The translations under genes and the position numbers were made by a program. From the IMG/VR virus record IMGVR_UViG_2663762648_000012: a stretch of 5,436 nucleotides of DNA; one strand, given 5' to 3'. Of this stretch, positions 1-4,955 are shown piece by piece. The notes beneath the pieces are model-generated. The model was not told the DNA's origin, made no database searches, and was given only the letters and a program-made list of their open reading frames with translations. How positions within the stretch are numbered: the first letter of the stretch is position 1; each line of letters opens with the position of its first letter. The stretch comes from a virus (lineage: Duplodnaviria > Heunggongvirae > Uroviricota > Caudoviricetes).

Positions 1-181
1 CTACCAGTGCCGGTGCGGCGAAAACGTTAGAAACGAATGCGGCAGCGTCACAACAATCAGCAGCCACTTCTGCATCCACCGCGACGCCTCAAAAAGCGCG
101 GCGGCCACCAGTGCCGGTGCGGCGAAAACGTCAGAAACGAATGCTGCAAGTTTCATCGTGGGTGTCGGTTATAAATTCTGA
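1..181 (+). CDS. 3' end of an upstream ORF entering the window (partial, possibly a pseudogene or chimera): Stf-type Ala/Ser-rich repeat sequence joined to a Lom/Ail-family outer-membrane-protein C-terminus
   Basis: Reading the frame that ends at TGA 179-181 gives ...[31 protein letters not shown]-stop. The last ten residues, with terminal aromatic Phe, match the C-terminal beta-strand of lambda Lom as I recall it, and the stop-to-stf spacing (65 bp) and downstream terminator are lambda-like. However nt 1-85 are identical to stf nt 838-922 and nt 87-148 match stf 820-881 with 3 mismatches, so the body is stf-repeat sequence, not a Lom barrel. Two frames are open across 1-148, so the true frame is uncertain. 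Confidence 0.35.
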   Translation, partial: YQCRCGENVRNECGSVTTISSHFCIHRDASKSAAATSAGAAKTSETNAASFIVGVGYKF

Positions 182-207
182 TTAGCCAGGTAACACAGTG
201 TTATGAC

Positions 208-245: not shown

Positions 246-3200
246 ATGGCAGTAAAGATTTCAGGTGTACTGAAAGACGGCACAGGAAAACCGGTACAGA
301 ACTGCACAATCCAGCTGAAAGCAAAACGTAACAGCACCACGGTGGTGGTGAACACGCTGGCCTCAGAAAATCCGGATGAAGCCGGGCGTTACAGCATGGA
401 CGTTGAGTACGGTCAGTACAGCGTTATTCTGTTGGTGGAAGGATTCCCGCCGTCACATGCCGGGACCATCACCGTGTATGAAGATTCCCGACCCGGTACG
501 CTGAATGATTTTCTCGGTGCCATGACGGAGGATGATGCCCGTCCGGAGGCACTGCGCCGTTTTGAGCTGATGGTGGAAGAGGTGGCGCGTAACGCGTCCG
601 CGGTGGCACAGAACACGGCAGCCGCGAAGAAATCAGCCAGCGATGCCAGCACATCAGCCCGTGAGGCGGCAACCCATGCGACTGATGCTGCAGATTCAGC
701 ACGTGCAGCCAGCACGTCAGCCGGACAGGCCGCTTCGTCGGCTCAGTCAGCGTCTTCCAGCGCAGGAACGGCATCAACAAAGGCCACTGAAGCCTCAAAA
801 AGTGCTGCCGCTGCAGAGTCCTCAAAAAGCGCGGCGGCTACCAGTGCCGGTGCGGCGAAAACGTTAGAAACGAATGCGGCAGCGTCACAACAATCAGCAG
901 CCACTTCTGCATCCACCGCGACCACGAAAGCGTCAGAAGCTGCCACCTCAGCCCGGGATGCGTCGGCTTCAAAAGAGGCGGCAAAATCATCAGAAACGAA
1001 CGCATCATCAAGCGCCAGTAGCGCAGCTTCCTCGGCGACGGCGGCTGCAAATTCTGCGAAGGCGGCCAAAACGTCCGAGACGAACGCCAGGTCTTCTGAA
1101 ACGGCAGCGGGACAGAGTGCCTCAGCTGCGGCAGGCTCAAAAACAGCGGCTGCGTCGTCTGCCAGCGCCGCGTCAACAAGTGCCGGGCAGGCCTCAGCCA
1201 GTGCCACCGCCGCCGGAAAATCGGCAGAAAGCGCCGCATCATCCGCTTCAACAGCCACAACGAAGGCTGGCGAAGCCACTGAACAGGCCAGCGCAGCAGC
1301 GAGGTCTGCTTCCGCAGCGAAGACATCCGAAACGAACGCGAAAGCGTCGGAAACCAGCGCAGAATCCTCAAAAACGGCTGCCGCATCGTCCGCCAGTTCG
1401 GCGGCGTCATCGGCATCATCGGCGTCTGCTTCAAAAGATGAGGCGACCAGACAGGCGTCAGCAGCGAGGGGCAGCGCCACGACGGCATCCACGAAGGCGA
1501 CAGAGGCTGCTGGTAGTGCGACGGCAGCAGCTCAGAGCAAAAGTACGGCGGAATCTGCAGCAACGCGCGCTGAGACAGCGGCAAAACGGGCAGAGGATAT
1601 TGCATCCGCCGTGGCGCTTGAGGATGCGAGCACGACGAAAAAGGGGATAGTACAGCTCAGTAGTGCGACTAACAGCACTTCCGAGTCACTGGCGGCAACA
1701 CCAAAAGCCGTTAAGGCCGCGTATGACCTGGCTAACGGGAAATACACCGCACAGGATGCAACGACAGCACAGAAAGGGATAATCCAGCTAAGCAGCGCGA
1801 CCAACAGCACGTCTGAAACGCTGGCGGCAACGCCAAAGGCAGTAAAAGCAGCCAATGACAATGCTGAGAAACGTCTGCAGAAAGATCAGAACGGTGCGGA
1901 TATCCCTGGCAAAGACACCTTTACGAAAAATATTGGTGCCTGCCGTGCCTTCGGTGGGTCAGTAAGCACAACAACAGGAAACTGGACGACTGCACAGTTT
2001 ATCGAGTGGCTGGATTCTCAGGGAGCATTTAACCATCCATACTGGATGTGCAAGGGTTCCTGGTCTTATGGCAATAATAAAATCATTACTGATACTGGCT
2101 GCGGTAATATTCATCTCGCCGGAGCTGTCATTGAAGTAATGGGGATAAAGTCAGCGATGACGATCCGCATTACCACTCCGACCACATCCAGCGGTGGCGG
2201 AACAACCAACGCCCAGTTTACCTATATTAATCACGGAACAGATTATTCACCTGGCTGGCGAAGGGACTATAACTCCAGAAATAAGCCAACGGCATCAGAG
2301 ATCGGGGCGCTACCGTCAGGTGGAACAGCAGTATCATCAGTTAATCTGGCTTCAAAAGGTCGGGTAGCCGCGCTGACAGACAATACGCAGGGGGCAGCAG
2401 GTCTTGAGTTATACGAGGTGTATAACAACGGATATCCAACAGCGTATGGAAATATCATTCACCTGAAAGGGATGACAGCCGTTGGCGAAGGTGAGTTACT
2501 CATCGGCTGGAGTGGTACAAGCGGTGCTCATGCTCCGGCATTTATTCGTTCACGACGGGATACGACCGACGCAAACTGGTCGCCGTGGGCGCAGCTTTAC
2601 ACCTCGGCTCATCCTCCTGCAGAGTTTTATCCAGTCGGTGCACCAATCCCGTGGCCATCAGATACCGTTCCGTCTGGCTATGCCCTGATGCAGGGGCAGG
2701 CTTTTGACAAATCTGCTTACCCGAAACTCGCAGCCGCTTATCCGTCAGGCGTGATCCCTGATATGCGTGGCTGGACGATTAAGGGCAAACCTGCCAGTGG
2801 TCGTGCCGTATTGTCTCAGGAACAGGATGGCATTAAATCGCACACCCACAGCGCCAGCGCATCCAGTACGGATTTGGGGACGAAAACCACATCGTCGTTT
2901 GATTACGGCACTAAATCCACGAATAACACCGGGGCGCATACGCACAGTCTGAGCGGCTCTACAAGTTCAGCTGGGGCCCACCAACATAGTCAGACTGGGC
3001 CCAGAACGAATAGCGGGAGTCAACCTACTGGAATGTTTCCGGCAGGGAGTACTCAAGTTAGCGGGACTAATCAGGTTGGTATCAGTGGCTCATTAACCAG
3101 TGGCACCTCCCAATGGGTAGGTAAATCATCTTCAGAAGGAAACCATACACACTCACTGTCCGGCACAGCAGCATCTGCGGGTGCACACGCGCATACTGTC

Positions 3201-3329
3201 GGTATTGGTGCTCATACGCACTCTGTTGCGATTGGTTCACATGGACACACCATCACCGTTAACGCTGCTGGTAACGCGGAAAACACCGTCAAAAACATCG
3301 CATTTAACTATATTGTGAGGCTCGCATAA
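246..3329 (+). CDS. stf: Side tail fibre protein (lambda Stf family), about 1027 aa; N-terminal lambda-like region, Ala/Ser-rich repeat shaft, duplicated [15 protein letters not shown] motif, a lower-GC central domain, and a His-rich HxH C-terminal tip
   Basis: Single long ORF from the six-frame track (240-3329). I place the start at ATG 246 ([26 protein letters not shown]..., matching the lambda Stf N-terminus) rather than the in-frame GTG at 240; a G-rich Shine-Dalgarno (gtgggg) lies just upstream. The C-terminus ...[31 protein letters not shown] matches the lambda Stf C-terminus. Stop TAA at 3327-3329. Confidence 0.95.
590..1640. repeat. Ala/Ser/Thr-rich low-complexity region of imperfect repeats inside stf (recurring AAKTSETNA-type units)
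   Basis: The translated sequence is almost entirely A/S/T/K/E with repeated motifs ([48 protein letters not shown]). The DNA is GC-rich with related units such as gcgaaaacgttagaaacgaatgcg, gccaaaacgtccgagacgaacgcc and gcgaagacatccgaaacgaacgcg. This also explains the long spurious antisense ORFs here. Confidence 0.6.
1641..1721 (+). repeat. Copy 1 of a duplicated 27-codon motif ([27 protein letters not shown]) within stf
   Basis: Direct repeat with copy 2 at 1773-1853, 132 bp (44 codons) apart and in frame. The two copies are identical at 25 of 27 residues but differ at many synonymous third positions. Confidence 0.8.
1773..1853 (+). repeat. Copy 2 of the duplicated 27-codon motif ([27 protein letters not shown]) within stf
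   Basis: See copy 1: same amino-acid motif, with divergent synonymous sites. Confidence 0.8.
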
Positions 3330-3910
3330 TGGCATTCAGAATGAGTGAACAAGCACGGACCATAAAAATTTATAACCTGCTGGCCGGAACTAATGAATTT
3401 ATTGGTGAAGGTGACGCATATATTCCGCCTCATACAGGTCTGCCTGCAAACAGTACCGATATTGCACCGCCAGATATTCCGGCTGGTTTCGTGGCTGTTT
3501 TCAACAGTGATGAGTCATCGTGGCATCTCGTTGAAGATCATCGGGGTAAAACGGTTTATGACGTGGCTTCCGGCGACGCGTTATTTATTTCTGAACTCGG
3601 CTCATTACCGGAAAATGTCACCTGGTTATCCCCGGAAGGGGAGTTTCAGAAGTGGAACGGCACAGCCTGGGTGAAGGATACGGAAGCAGAAAAACTGTTC
3701 CGGATCCGGGAGGCGGAAGAAACAAAAAACAGCCTGATGCAGGTAGCCAGTGAGCATATAGCGCCGCTTCAGGATGCTGTGGATCTGGAGATCGCAACGG
3801 AGAAAGAAACCTTGTTGCTGGAAGCTTGGAAAAAGTATCGGGTGTTGCTGAACCGTGTTGATACATCAACTGCACCGGATATTGAATGGCCAGTAGCACC
3901 TATAGGGTAA
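3329..3910 (+). CDS. tfa: Tail fibre assembly protein (lambda Tfa family chaperone), 193 aa
   Basis: ORF 3329-3910 ([54 protein letters not shown]...[10 protein letters not shown]) matches lambda Tfa as recalled, near-identical over the N-terminal part. Its ATG overlaps the stf stop in a TAATG arrangement (3327-3331), consistent with translational coupling, and gtgagg (3315-3320) provides a Shine-Dalgarno about 8 nt upstream. Stop TAA at 3908-3910. Confidence 0.93.
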
Positions 3911-4169: not shown

Positions 4170-4178
4170 CTTGCTTTA
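4170..4178. repeat. Left copy of the 9-bp target-site duplication (CTTGCTTTA) generated by IS1 insertion
   Basis: The 9 bp immediately left of the IS1 left end (4170-4178) are identical to the 9 bp immediately right of the IS1 right end (4947-4955). A 9-bp duplication is the characteristic IS1 size. Confidence 0.9.
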
Positions 4179-4201
4179 GGTGATGCTGCCAACTTACTGA
4201 T
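4179..4201. repeat. IS1 left terminal inverted repeat (IRL, about 23 bp)
   Basis: ggtgatgctgccaacttactgat; the reverse complement of the right end (ggtaatgactccaacttattgat) matches at 18 of 23 positions, as expected for IS1's imperfect inverted repeats. Confidence 0.85.
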
Positions 4202-4233
4202 TTAGTGTATGATGGTGTTTTTGAGGTTCTCCA

Positions 4234-4509
4234 GTGGCTTCTGTTTCTATCAGCTGTCCCTCCTGTTCAGCTACTGACGGGGTGGTGCGTAACGGCAAAA
4301 GCACCGCCGGACATCAGCGCTATCTCTGCTCTCACTGCCGTAAAACATGGCAACTGCAGTTCACTTACACCGCTTCTCAACCCGGTACGCACCAGAAAAT
4401 CATTGATATGGCCATGAATGGCGTTGGATGCCGGGCAACTGCACGCATTATGGGCGTTGGCCTCAACACGATTTTACGTCACTTAAAAAACTCAGGCCGC
4501 AGTCGGTAA
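4234..4509 (+). CDS. insA: IS1 InsA (transposition inhibitor / DNA-binding protein), 91 aa
   Basis: ORF starting at GTG 4234 ([51 protein letters not shown]...LKNSGRSR) matches IS1 InsA as recalled, including the Cys-rich zinc-finger-like N-terminus. A Shine-Dalgarno-like tgagg sits 7 nt upstream. Confidence 0.93.
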
Positions 4510-4931
4510 CCTCGCGCATACAGCCGGGCAGTGACGTCATCGTCTGCGCGGAAATGGACGAACAGTGGGGCTATGTCGGGGCTAAATCGCGCCAGCGCTG
4601 GCTGTTTTACGCGTATGACAGTCTCCGGAAGACGGTTGTTGCGCACGTATTCGGTGAACGCACTATGGCGACGCTGGGGCGTCTTATGAGCCTGCTGTCA
4701 CCCTTTGACGTGGTGATATGGATGACGGATGGCTGGCCGCTGTATGAATCCCGCCTGAAGGGAAAGCTGCACGTAATCAGCAAGCGATATACGCAGCGAA
4801 TTGAGCGGCATAACCTGAATCTGAGGCAGCACCTGGCACGGCTGGGACGGAAGTCGCTGTCGTTCTCAAAATCGGTGGAGCTGCATGACAAAGTCATCGG
4901 GCATTATCTGAACATAAAACACTATCAATAA
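4428..4931 (+). CDS. insB: IS1 InsB reading frame (catalytic part of the InsAB' transposase produced by a -1 frameshift from insA)
   Basis: ORF in the -1 frame relative to insA, overlapping its 3' end ([53 protein letters not shown]...HYLNIKHYQ), matching IS1 InsB as recalled. The coordinates are those of the ORF as computed from the first in-frame ATG; the functional product is the InsA-B' fusion. Confidence 0.9.
4485..4491 (+). other. Programmed -1 ribosomal frameshift site (A6C slippery motif) joining insA to insB
   Basis: The heptamer a-aaa-aac lies in the insA frame (LKN codons) just upstream of the insA stop, within the insA/insB overlap. This is the documented IS1 recoding site that yields InsAB' transposase. 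Confidence 0.8.
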
Positions 4932-4946
4932 GTTGGAGTCATTACC
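4924..4946. repeat. IS1 right terminal inverted repeat (IRR, about 23 bp)
   Basis: atcaataagttggagtcattacc; this is the inverted partner of IRL at 4179-4201. Confidence 0.85.
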
Positions 4947-4955
4947 CTTGCTTTA
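4947..4955. repeat. Right copy of the 9-bp target-site duplication (CTTGCTTTA)
   Basis: Identical to 4170-4178 and immediately abutting the IS1 right end. Confidence 0.9.

What the first reader, a model, noticed from the sequence alone, without database searches (positions are those of the whole stretch)
1641..1853. Duplicated 27-residue motif conserved at protein level but diverged at synonymous sites
The two KGI(V/I)[11 protein letters not shown](S/T)[11 protein letters not shown] copies, 44 codons apart, share 25 of 27 residues yet differ at many third-codon positions (for example gta-cag-ctc-agt-agt versus atc-cag-cta-agc-agc). That indicates an old duplication held by purifying selection on the peptide, not a recent slippage event. 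Silent divergence would also reduce homologous recombination between the copies. The motif may be a structural or recombination-linker module of tail fibres.
Basis: seen in the sequence. Interest (0 to 1): 0.35.

Follow-up and report, generated by a model that had tools for sequence, protein, structure and literature searches.

The report
Two known phage tail-fibre repeat units
The duplicated 27-residue motif is two tandem units of the long-catalogued phage tail-fibre repeat (Pfam PF03406) in a lambda-like prophage side tail fibre; the copies are real and saturated at silent sites, but this is normal for the family.

Summary
Nt 1641-1721 and 1773-1853 encode the same 27 residues at 25/27 identity. 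They differ at 19/81 bases, 17 of them at third codon positions. pS is 0.81 (saturated) and pN is 0.033.

The motif is not new. Both copies match Pfam PF03406 (Phage_fiber_2, E 6e-37) inside a lambdoid side tail fibre gene (stf, 246-3329). This gene has a lambda Stf N-terminus, an Ala/Ser-rich rod, two 44-residue repeat units, a Mu S'-like domain and a T4 gp37-like tip. The chaperone gene tfa follows it.

Silent-site saturation between units is general in the family: 17 within-gene pairs in five genes gave pS 0.31-1.01. Each window copy has a much closer relative in another fibre gene than its neighbour here. So the pair looks like two circulating unit lineages, not necessarily an in-place duplication.

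Copy number varies from 1 to 12. Close alleles exactly 44 codons shorter carry one hybrid unit, with two different crossover points. Silent divergence therefore does not prevent recombination.

Homology between fibre genes repeatedly starts or stops at the array. Protein-level enrichment is modest, and the gene's strongest junction lies elsewhere (aa 753-796).

Verdict: ordinary and already known.

The parts
246..3329 (+). stf, a lambdoid prophage side tail fibre gene (1027 aa from the ATG at 246; the ORF also opens at a GTG at 240)
   Evidence: ORF. Pfam PF08400 + PF03406 x2 + PF07484. PDB sequence matches: lambda Stf N-terminus 9e7m (aa 1-94), Mu S/S' 8ju3 and 5yvq (aa 490-723), T4 gp37 tip 2xgf (aa 794-1027). 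93-95% identical E. coli prophage proteins.
246..647 (+). N-terminal tail-attachment domain (PfN, PF08400), aa 1-134
   Evidence: E 1.4e-71. (9e7m, aa 1-94).
648..1620 (+). Ala/Ser-rich low-complexity rod between PfN and the repeat array. [quoted passage not shown]
   Evidence: Composition and internal direct repeats. CD and SEC-MALLS data on a homologous PfN-PCoil fragment in PMC3368898. The assignment here is by analogy and was not tested.
1621..1752 (+). PF03406 unit 1, a full 44-residue unit ([44 protein letters not shown])
   Evidence: Pfam stretch aa 462-502. 107-nt direct repeat D3. Register table.
1641..1721 (+). Core copy 1 of the reported 27-residue motif. It belongs to the unit lineage shared with L008 unit 1, L009 and P2-type L010 unit 3.
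1753..1859 (+). PF03406 unit 2, the last unit of the array. Its tail is replaced by the NDNAEK... linker.
1773..1853 (+). Core copy 2 of the reported motif. It belongs to the unit lineage shared with K-12 stfR and L008 unit 2.
1689..1699 (+). CTGGCGGCAAC, the longest in-register identical run between the two units (11 nt). In the single-unit allele L001 the switch from copy-1 to copy-2 states falls in the interval that contains this run.
1854..1940 (+). Post-array linker [29 protein letters not shown]. It is homologous to the end of the constant part of Mu S and 186 K, where the 26-bp invertase crossover site lies. No such site is present here.
   Evidence: Alignment to Mu S/S'. Mu G-segment boundary and the 186 'Mu-like inversion crossover site' annotations. 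No gix-like match.
1860..2414 (+). Mu S'-like domain, aa 539-723
   Evidence: 8ju3, domain E 1.4e-69. The same module follows the array in the P2-like H gene of L004.
2625..3326 (+). Collar domain plus T4 gp37-like receptor-binding tip with HxH motifs, aa 794-1027
   Evidence: PF07484. (2xgf, E 4e-81).
3329..3910 (+). tfa, the tail fibre assembly chaperone gene
   Evidence: PF02413, E 4.6e-44. Annotations of homologous loci.

Best explanation
The two copies are adjacent 44-residue units of the phage tail-fibre repeat Pfam PF03406 (Phage_fiber_2). They lie in the side tail fibre (Stf) of a lambda-like E. coli prophage.

The array sits between two parts of the fibre. Upstream is the conserved proximal part: the tail-attachment domain plus an Ala/Ser-rich rod. 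Downstream is the exchangeable distal part: here a Mu S'-like domain and a T4 gp37-like tip, folded with the help of Tfa.

The peptide is held almost invariant because it is a structural element of the trimeric shaft that must fit many different partners on either side. This reason is inferred. The DNA has drifted to saturation at silent sites.

The same units occur in lambdoid, P2-, 186-, Mu- and P1-type fibres. They act as in-frame junctions at which proximal and distal modules are recombined, and at which unit number rises or falls (1-12 units seen).

The window's two units are two old unit lineages that circulate among these genes. They are not a duplicate pair that diverged in place.

Shown here: the identity of the motif, the divergence statistics, the unit lineages, hybrid single-unit alleles, and homology breakpoints at unit edges. 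Inferred: the structural role, and that recombination rather than only selection on chimeras places the junctions there.
For: Identity:
- PF03406 scores 125 bits over two stretches against a cutoff of 22.
- The consensus of 127 instances in 60 diverse proteins is [39 protein letters not shown].

Distribution:
- tblastn found the motif in 441 phage records, including lambdoid, P2, 186, Mu, P1-like, Stx, Haemophilus, Pasteurella and Pseudomonas phages.
- 60 of 150 representatives at 50% identity carry 1-12 units, with a dominant period of 44.

Selection:
- The window pair has pS 0.81 and pN 0.033.
- 17 within-gene unit pairs in five genes have pS 0.31-1.01 (median 0.67) and median pN 0.066.

Unit lineages:
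- win.1 is close to L008.1 (pS 0.10), L010.3 (0.29) and L009.1 (0.29).
- win.2 is close to L003.1 and L008.2 (both 0.24).

Copy-number change within the units:
- 32 of 120 near-identical proteins are 983 aa and carry one hybrid unit, GIV...SET...KAANDNAEK.
- At the DNA level, L012-L014 and K-12 stfR switch from copy-1 to copy-2 states between nt 24 and 30 of the core. L001 switches between nt 48 and 60, the interval that contains the 11-nt identical run.

Junctions:
- One lambda-type N-terminus and rod is followed by 1, 2 or 3 units and by at least four different distal modules.
- Similarity to P2-type H genes begins at nt 1621, at the unit start. Similarity to lambda-like HK629 ends at 1716/1846 and to K-12 stfR at 1906.
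- In 60 evenly sampled E. coli genome matches, 10 covered the whole 601-nt query. Apart from one two-piece single-unit match, the partial matches ended almost entirely in three patches: window 1714-1727, 1849-1865 and 1906-1916.

Literature:
- PMC4134206 describes prophage fibres as a stable 5' region with Pfam03406 tandem repeats fused to an invertible 3' region.
- PMC11338833 reports a functional engineered lambda STF(1-393)-P2 H(251-) chimera. In HK629, residue 393 is six residues after the motif.
Against: - No structure of the unit was available. The only PDB entries whose sequences contain the motif are of Mu S/S'. The Mu papers read describe only N- and C-terminal parts as modelled.
- A single-sequence AlphaFold2 model of aa 440-640 was useless, with pLDDT 38. 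The structural role is therefore inferred.
- With a strict filter (HSPs of at least 120 aa and at least 70% identity), only 7 of 28 internal homology ends (p = 0.03, events not independent) and 5 of 52 starts (not significant) fall in the array region, which is 11% of the gene. The dominant junction is at aa 753-796.
- Unit lineages rest on 81 nt, about 21 synonymous sites, so each pS value is noisy.
- The direction of copy-number change was not determined. It could be deletion from two units or assembly from single-unit genes.
Confidence: 0.85

Rival explanations
1. An ancient tandem duplication occurred inside this stf lineage. Both copies then stayed in place while silent sites drifted under purifying selection on the peptide.
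For: The units are adjacent and in register, with the same 44-codon period seen in arrays elsewhere. Silent sites are saturated while replacement sites are conserved. All units must ultimately descend from duplications.
Against: Each copy has a far closer relative in another gene than its neighbour here. Some of these are at a different array position or in a myovirus-type fibre: win.1 versus P2-type L010 unit 3 has pS 0.29, against 0.81 for win.1 versus win.2. Arrays with the same N-terminal part carry 1, 2 or 3 units in different combinations.
Confidence: 0.2
2. Silent divergence between the units is itself adaptive. Recoding is selected because it keeps the array from collapsing by homologous recombination.
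For: In-register identity is broken into runs of at most 11 nt. That is below the roughly 25 bp of uninterrupted identity needed for efficient RecA-dependent exchange in E. coli (established knowledge, recalled from memory). None of the 17 within-gene unit pairs sampled was near-identical; the minimum pS was 0.31.
Against: Observed silent differences (15 of 25 codons) equal the neutral saturation expectation (16.4) and do not exceed it. Single-unit hybrid alleles are common (32 of the 120 closest clusters) and arose at two or more crossover points. The sample of arrays is small.
Confidence: 0.12
3. A recent slippage or unequal-crossover duplication of one unit.
For: The copies are in tandem and in frame.
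Against: 19 of 81 bases differ, and pS is 0.81, which is saturated. The same two lineages are found separately in other genomes.
Confidence: 0.01
4. Breakpoints cluster at the array only because it is the single conserved island between variable segments, so alignments must start or stop there. On this view the units play no mechanistic part in recombination.
For: The unfiltered excess of homology ends (31 of 108 in aa 521-580) shrinks to 7 of 28 when only long, high-identity alignments are counted.
Against: Hybrid units have clean switches from copy-1 to copy-2 states inside the 81-nt core. One of these switches falls in the interval containing the longest shared run. This shows that exchanges do occur within the units. 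An engineered junction six residues after the motif is functional.
Confidence: 0.25

Closest known systems
Pfam PF03406, Phage_fiber_2 (phage tail fibre repeat; InterPro IPR005068)
   Same: Both copies match the model end to end (positions 1-41 of 42) at 125 bits in total. The 44-residue tandem period and the tail-fibre context are typical.
   Different: Nothing of substance. This is a plain member with two units.
Lambda Stf and the E. coli K-12 prophage fibres StfR (Rac) and StfQ (Qin)
   Same: The N-terminal domain (PF08400; 9e7m, aa 1-94), the Ala/Ser-rich rod, the motif position, the gp37-like tip, and tfa immediately downstream.
   Different: Lambda-like HK629 and K-12 stfR carry one unit, and the window carries two. 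After the unit, lambda continues with MDETNRKAPL... and stfR with a different distal module from nt 1906 onwards.
Tail fibres of Mu (S/S'), 186 (K), P2 (H) and P1 (S), with or without invertible G/C segments
   Same: The same repeat unit is followed by the DNAxxRLxKDxNGADIP linker. In Mu and 186 the invertase crossover site lies about 70-80 nt after the last core. The window's Mu S'-like domain also follows a four-unit array in a P2-like H gene.
   Different: The N-terminal baseplate-binding parts are unrelated. The window has no 26-bp crossover site and no invertase gene. Its close relatives have a resolvase-family gene after tfa.
EHEC prophage collagen-like fibres (EPclB architecture, PMC3368898)
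   Same: A PfN-PCoil-...-Pf2 domain grammar, in which Pf2 (PF03406) sits between rod segments.
   Different: Those proteins have collagen triple-helix segments and a PfC end. The window has neither.

Membership tests
Pfam PF03406 Phage_fiber_2 repeat | Profile HMM score above the curated gathering threshold (22 bits) | tested here: met
   125.4 bits, E 6.2e-37, two stretches; the best is aa 462-502 on model positions 1-41 of 42.
Pfam PF03406 Phage_fiber_2 repeat | Tandem units with a period of about 42-44 residues | tested here: met
   Start-to-start spacing is 132 nt, or 44 codons. A period of 44 dominates in 60 motif-bearing representatives.
Pfam PF03406 Phage_fiber_2 repeat | Located in a phage tail fibre protein | tested here: met
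   PF08400 and PF07484 in the same protein, and PF02413 (Tfa) in the next gene. Phage records annotate the homologues as side tail fibre proteins.
Lambda-type side tail fibre (Stf) | PF08400 N-terminal domain homologous to lambda Stf | tested here: met
   E 1.4e-71. The 94-residue lambda chain 9e7m aligns over aa 1-94 at E 1e-51.
Lambda-type side tail fibre (Stf) | Gene order lom - stf - tfa | tested here: met
   tfa lies at 3329-3910. The last codons of lom (..FIVGVGYKF stop) are readable at about 153-182. Homologous loci are annotated Ail/Lom - fibre - Tfa.
Invertase-switched tail fibres (Gin/Cin/Pin systems) | 26-bp crossover site in the fibre gene just after the repeat | tested here: not met
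   No match to TTATCNAAAACCTCGGTTTACRRGAA with up to 3 mismatches. The homologous position, about 1921-1946, is diverged.
Invertase-switched tail fibres (Gin/Cin/Pin systems) | Serine invertase gene next to the fibre/tfa genes | tested here: not met
   The only sizeable ORFs after tfa are the IS1 insA/insB frames. Relatives L001-L003 and L012-L014 do carry a resolvase-family gene there.
Recent tandem duplication / slippage product | Near-identical DNA in the two copies | tested here: not met
   76.5% nucleotide identity over the core; pS 0.81.

The most novel reading that the evidence does not exclude
The array works as an in-frame 'polylinker' for recombination. Each synonymously distinct unit lineage would offer a patch of DNA homology to a different set of donor fibre genes. 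A fibre carrying several lineages could then swap its distal module with more partners. Silent divergence between neighbouring units would be maintained by selection because it keeps the array from collapsing. My data show shared unit lineages across lambdoid and P2-type genes and crossovers inside units. They do not show any selective maintenance or any donor-specific use of lineages.
Probability: 0.12. Interest if true: 0.4.

Novelty: already known. Interest (0 to 1): 0.13.

Why it matters
It matters little as a discovery. The motif is a catalogued Pfam repeat in a textbook mosaic gene family. Its place at the constant/variable boundary of tail fibres has been discussed since the early 1990s, and engineered chimeric fibres already use a junction just after it.

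There are three practical points:
1. The unit is a safe in-frame junction for designing chimeric Stf or H fibres.
2. Natural alleles differ by whole 44-residue units, so fibre length is polymorphic.
3. Single-unit alleles escape Pfam annotation when scanned as full-length proteins. Domain-based surveys will therefore undercount the repeat.

Tried and rejected
- **Structure prediction.** A single-sequence AlphaFold2 model of aa 440-640 gave mean pLDDT 38 and pTM 0.27. It was unusable and was not sent to fold search. No deeper alignment was tried, because only near-identical homologues were eligible as input and the fibre is an obligate trimer.
- **PDB search.** Only entries of Mu S/S' contain the motif in their sequences. 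The papers read do not describe that segment as modelled.
- **Older literature.** Sandmeier et al. 1992 (PMC206102) is not held in the library. Sandmeier 1994 is known here only through its citation in PMC4134206.
- **Invertase crossover site.** None was found in the window.
- **RNA families.** Nothing lies in or near the motif. The only hit is IS009, inside tfa.
- **Antisense ORF.** The 109-aa ORF at 1532-1861 on the minus strand is just the reverse reading of the repeat. It has no support as a gene and was not pursued.
- **Unfiltered breakpoint histogram.** The excess at the array (31 of 108) is partly an artefact of motif-only homology. I replaced it with a stricter count.
- **Selected recoding.** I looked for evidence that silent divergence exceeds neutral saturation. 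It does not: 15 differing codons observed against 16.4 expected.
Full report
**What the window is.** The 5436-nt window carries a long + strand ORF (240/246-3329) followed by a 193-aa ORF (3329-3910) and an IS1 element.

The long protein is 1027 aa from the ATG at 246. Pfam gives the following:
- PF08400, prophage tail fibre N-terminal: aa 1-134, E 1.4e-71.
- PF03406, Phage_fiber_2: two stretches, E 6.2e-37.
- PF07484, Collar: aa 798-845.
- The next protein is a Caudo_TAP tail fibre assembly chaperone (PF02413).

Against PDB sequences the protein is a mosaic:
- aa 1-94 match the lambda tail fibre N-terminus (9e7m).
- aa 490-723 match Mu tail fibre S/S' (8ju3, 5yvq).
- aa 794-1027 match the T4 gp37 receptor-binding tip (2xgf).

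Phage records with 95-97% nucleotide identity annotate the pair as side tail fibre and tail fibre assembly protein. E. coli genomes hold 93-95% identical 'prophage tail fiber N-terminal domain-containing' proteins. The gene is therefore stf of a lambdoid prophage, followed by tfa.

**Checking the observation.**
- 25 of 27 residues are identical.
- 19 of 81 bases differ, 17 at third and 2 at first codon positions.
- 15 of the 25 conserved codons are synonymous variants.
- Nei-Gojobori pS is 0.81, too high to correct, and pN is 0.033.

Independent codon choice with this gene's codon usage would give 16.4 differing codons among the 25. The observed 15 means full saturation and no more.

The repeat extends beyond the reported core to 107 nt (1621-1727 versus 1753-1859, 74% identity). 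The real unit is 44 residues. The longest in-register identical run is 11 nt, CTGGCGGCAAC at 1689.

**What the motif is.** It is the Pfam repeat PF03406.
- tblastn of the 87-residue segment found it in 441 phage records. These include lambdoid Stf, P2 H, 186 K, Mu S, P1-like S, Stx-phage fibres, and Haemophilus, Pasteurella and Pseudomonas phages.
- A search of 1.84 billion representatives at 50% identity with the whole Stf returned 150 diverse proteins. 60 of them carry the unit.
- Copy numbers in those 60 were 1 (33 proteins), 2 (16), 3 (3), 4 (3), and one protein each with 5, 6, 7, 11 and 12. A period of 44 was dominant.
- The consensus of 127 instances is [39 protein letters not shown].

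**Silent divergence is a family trait, and the two copies are distinct lineages.** I extracted the DNA of 21 units from the window and ten other fibre genes: lambdoid L001, L003, L007, L008 and L009; P2- or 186-type L004, L005, L010 and L011; and Mu L006.
- All units differ from one another mainly at silent sites.
- For 17 within-gene pairs in five genes, pS ranges from 0.31 to 1.01 (median 0.67) with median pN 0.066.
- No sampled array contains a recently expanded, near-identical pair.
- Units cluster into lineages that cross gene families and array positions.
- Window copy 1 groups with unit 1 of an O157 stf (pS 0.10), the single unit of L009 (0.29) and the third unit of a P2-type H gene (0.29).
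- Copy 2 groups with the single unit of K-12 stfR and unit 2 of the O157 stf (both 0.24).
- The third O157 unit groups with the fourth unit of the P2-type gene.

These estimates rest on about 21 synonymous sites each and are noisy. The contrast with 0.81 between the window's own copies is still clear. The pair therefore looks like two old, circulating unit lineages rather than a duplicate pair that diverged in place.

**Copy number changes by exchange inside the units.** Among the 120 closest protein clusters, 32 are 983 aa, exactly 44 residues shorter. They contain one hybrid unit that starts like copy 1 (GIV) and ends like copy 2 (SET...KAANDNAEK).

At the DNA level:
- Three contigs encoding such a protein (L012-L014), and also K-12 stfR, carry copy-1 states up to nt 24 of the core and copy-2 states from nt 30 onwards.
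- Another single-unit allele (L001) carries copy-1 states to nt 48 and copy-2 states from nt 60. That interval contains the 11-nt identical run.

So at least two independent crossovers between the lineages have occurred. Silent divergence breaks identity into short runs and plausibly lowers RecA-type exchange. That step is inference from general knowledge of minimal homology lengths. It does not prevent unit loss or exchange over evolutionary time.

**Do mosaic joints coincide with the motif?** At the DNA level among E. coli prophages and model phages, yes.
- One lambda-type N-terminus and rod (...[21 protein letters not shown]) is followed by one, two or three units. After those come at least four unrelated distal modules: [23 protein letters not shown]..., YDNAEKRLQ...DIPDKGCF..., NDNANGRVPS... 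and MGETNKKAPLNSP....
- P2-type H genes, with an unrelated N-terminus, join the same units to the same distal modules.
- blastn similarity of the window to the P2-like gene starts at nt 1621. To 186 K it spans 1637-1906 and to Mu S 1785-1906. To lambda-like HK629 it stops at 1716/1846, and to K-12 stfR at 1906.
- In 60 evenly sampled matches of a 601-nt query (window 1450-2050) in complete E. coli genomes, 10 covered the full length. Apart from one two-piece single-unit match, the partial matches ended almost entirely in three patches: window 1714-1727, 1849-1865 or 1906-1916.

At the protein level among the 150 diverse representatives the picture is weaker.
- Unfiltered, 31 of 108 internal homology ends fall in aa 521-580. 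This is inflated by proteins that share only the motif.
- Counting only alignments of at least 120 aa and at least 70% identity, 7 of 28 ends (p = 0.03, events not independent) and 5 of 52 starts (not significant) fall in the array region, which is 11% of the gene.
- By far the strongest junction in the gene is at aa 753-796, before the collar and gp37-like tip: 30 of 52 starts fall in aa 741-800.

The array is a recurrent junction but not the dominant one.

**Relation to known systems.**
- In Mu the G-segment boundary lies about 80 nt after the core of the unit. In 186 the annotated 'Mu-like inversion crossover site' lies about 68 nt after it. The window has the homologous linker ([29 protein letters not shown], 1854-1940). 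It has no recognisable 26-bp crossover site and no invertase gene. Close relatives carry a resolvase-family gene after tfa.
- PMC4134206 describes E. coli prophage fibres as a stable 5' region encoding Pfam03406 tandem repeats fused to an invertible 3' region with a Collar domain. It cites Sandmeier 1994 for the general principle.
- PMC3368898 lists the same PfN / PCoil / Pf2 domain grammar and shows that PCoil is a trimeric coiled coil.
- PMC11338833 reports a functional lambda STF(1-393)-P2 H(251-) chimera. In the lambda-like HK629 Stf the motif occupies aa 361-387 and MDETNR occupies 388-393. The engineered joint is therefore six residues after the unit.

**How it most likely works.**
- Shown: the units are nearly invariant peptides with free silent sites. 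They lie between the proximal rod and the distal modules. They are shared by fibres with unrelated ends. Recombination junctions, including intra-unit crossovers, occur in and around them.
- Inferred: each 44-residue unit is a short structural segment of the trimeric shaft that adapts the rod to whatever distal module follows. That role would explain the strong constraint on the peptide and why chimeras joined there remain functional.
- Not determined: the fold. Only Mu S/S' PDB entries contain the motif in their sequences, and the Mu papers read do not describe that segment as modelled. A contact-based model in PMC8078820 was rated unreliable. My single-sequence AlphaFold2 run failed, with pLDDT 38.

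**Verdict.** The feature is an ordinary member of a known repeat family in a known mosaic gene.

The added findings are descriptive refinements, not a new kind of element. They are the unit lineages shared between lambdoid and P2-type fibres, the whole-unit length polymorphism with hybrid units, and the lack of any sign that silent divergence exceeds neutrality.

Interest is low, at about 0.13. The most novel reading not excluded is that arrays of synonymously distinct units are maintained as multi-partner recombination adaptors. I put its probability at about 0.12.

Noticed in passing
window 1-182: The first 85 nt are 100% identical to stf-internal nt 838-922, and nt 87-148 are 95% identical to 820-881. 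This stf-derived material abuts the last codons of lom (about 153-182, ..FIVGVGYKF stop). The best complete-genome matches align only from about nt 150 onwards. This is either a real rearrangement through the Ala/Ser-rich repeats or an assembly artefact.
   Followed up: partly
window 4179-4946 (flanks 4170-4178 and 4947-4955): A complete 768-bp IS1 element (insA/insB frames at 4234-4509 and 4428-4931) with a 9-bp target-site duplication, CTTGCTTTA. It sits in AT-rich DNA downstream of tfa. Close relatives have a resolvase-family (pin-like) gene downstream of tfa instead.
   Followed up: partly
window 3672-3870 (+), inside tfa: A full-length match to Rfam RF02111 'IS009' (218 bits against a gathering score of 117). 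It lies entirely within the tfa coding sequence.
   Followed up: no
window 2957-3147: This segment of the gp37-like tip lies between HxH motifs (..[16 protein letters not shown]...SSEGNHTHS..). It has no blastn match in the otherwise 97-98% identical relatives L001 and L002, which carry a shorter, different segment there. It is probably a swapped receptor-contact loop region.
   Followed up: partly
P0090 and the other 983-aa single-unit alleles; L012 1501-4452: Pfam scanning of the full-length single-unit proteins reports no PF03406 hit, both precomputed and in my own hmmscan. The excised 81-residue segment scores 78 bits (E 3e-22). HMMER's filters, probably the composition-bias filter triggered by the Ala/Ser-rich rod, hide single units, so domain surveys undercount this repeat.
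   Followed up: yes
window 648-1620: The Ala/Ser-rich rod contains its own diverged direct repeats (for example 45-62-nt families around 813-881, 1030-1193 and 1359-1403, with the motif ..AAKTSETNA..). Lambda-like HK629 lacks about 300 nt of it (similarity gap 1155-1458), so rod length is also polymorphic.
   Followed up: partly
L004 (P2-like OU784750) 2258-2734; L010 (E. coli E200086) H gene: P2-type H genes carry four tandem 44-residue units. In L004 they are followed by the same Mu S'-like distal module as the window. This is a natural counterpart of the engineered lambda-P2 fibre chimeras.
   Followed up: partly
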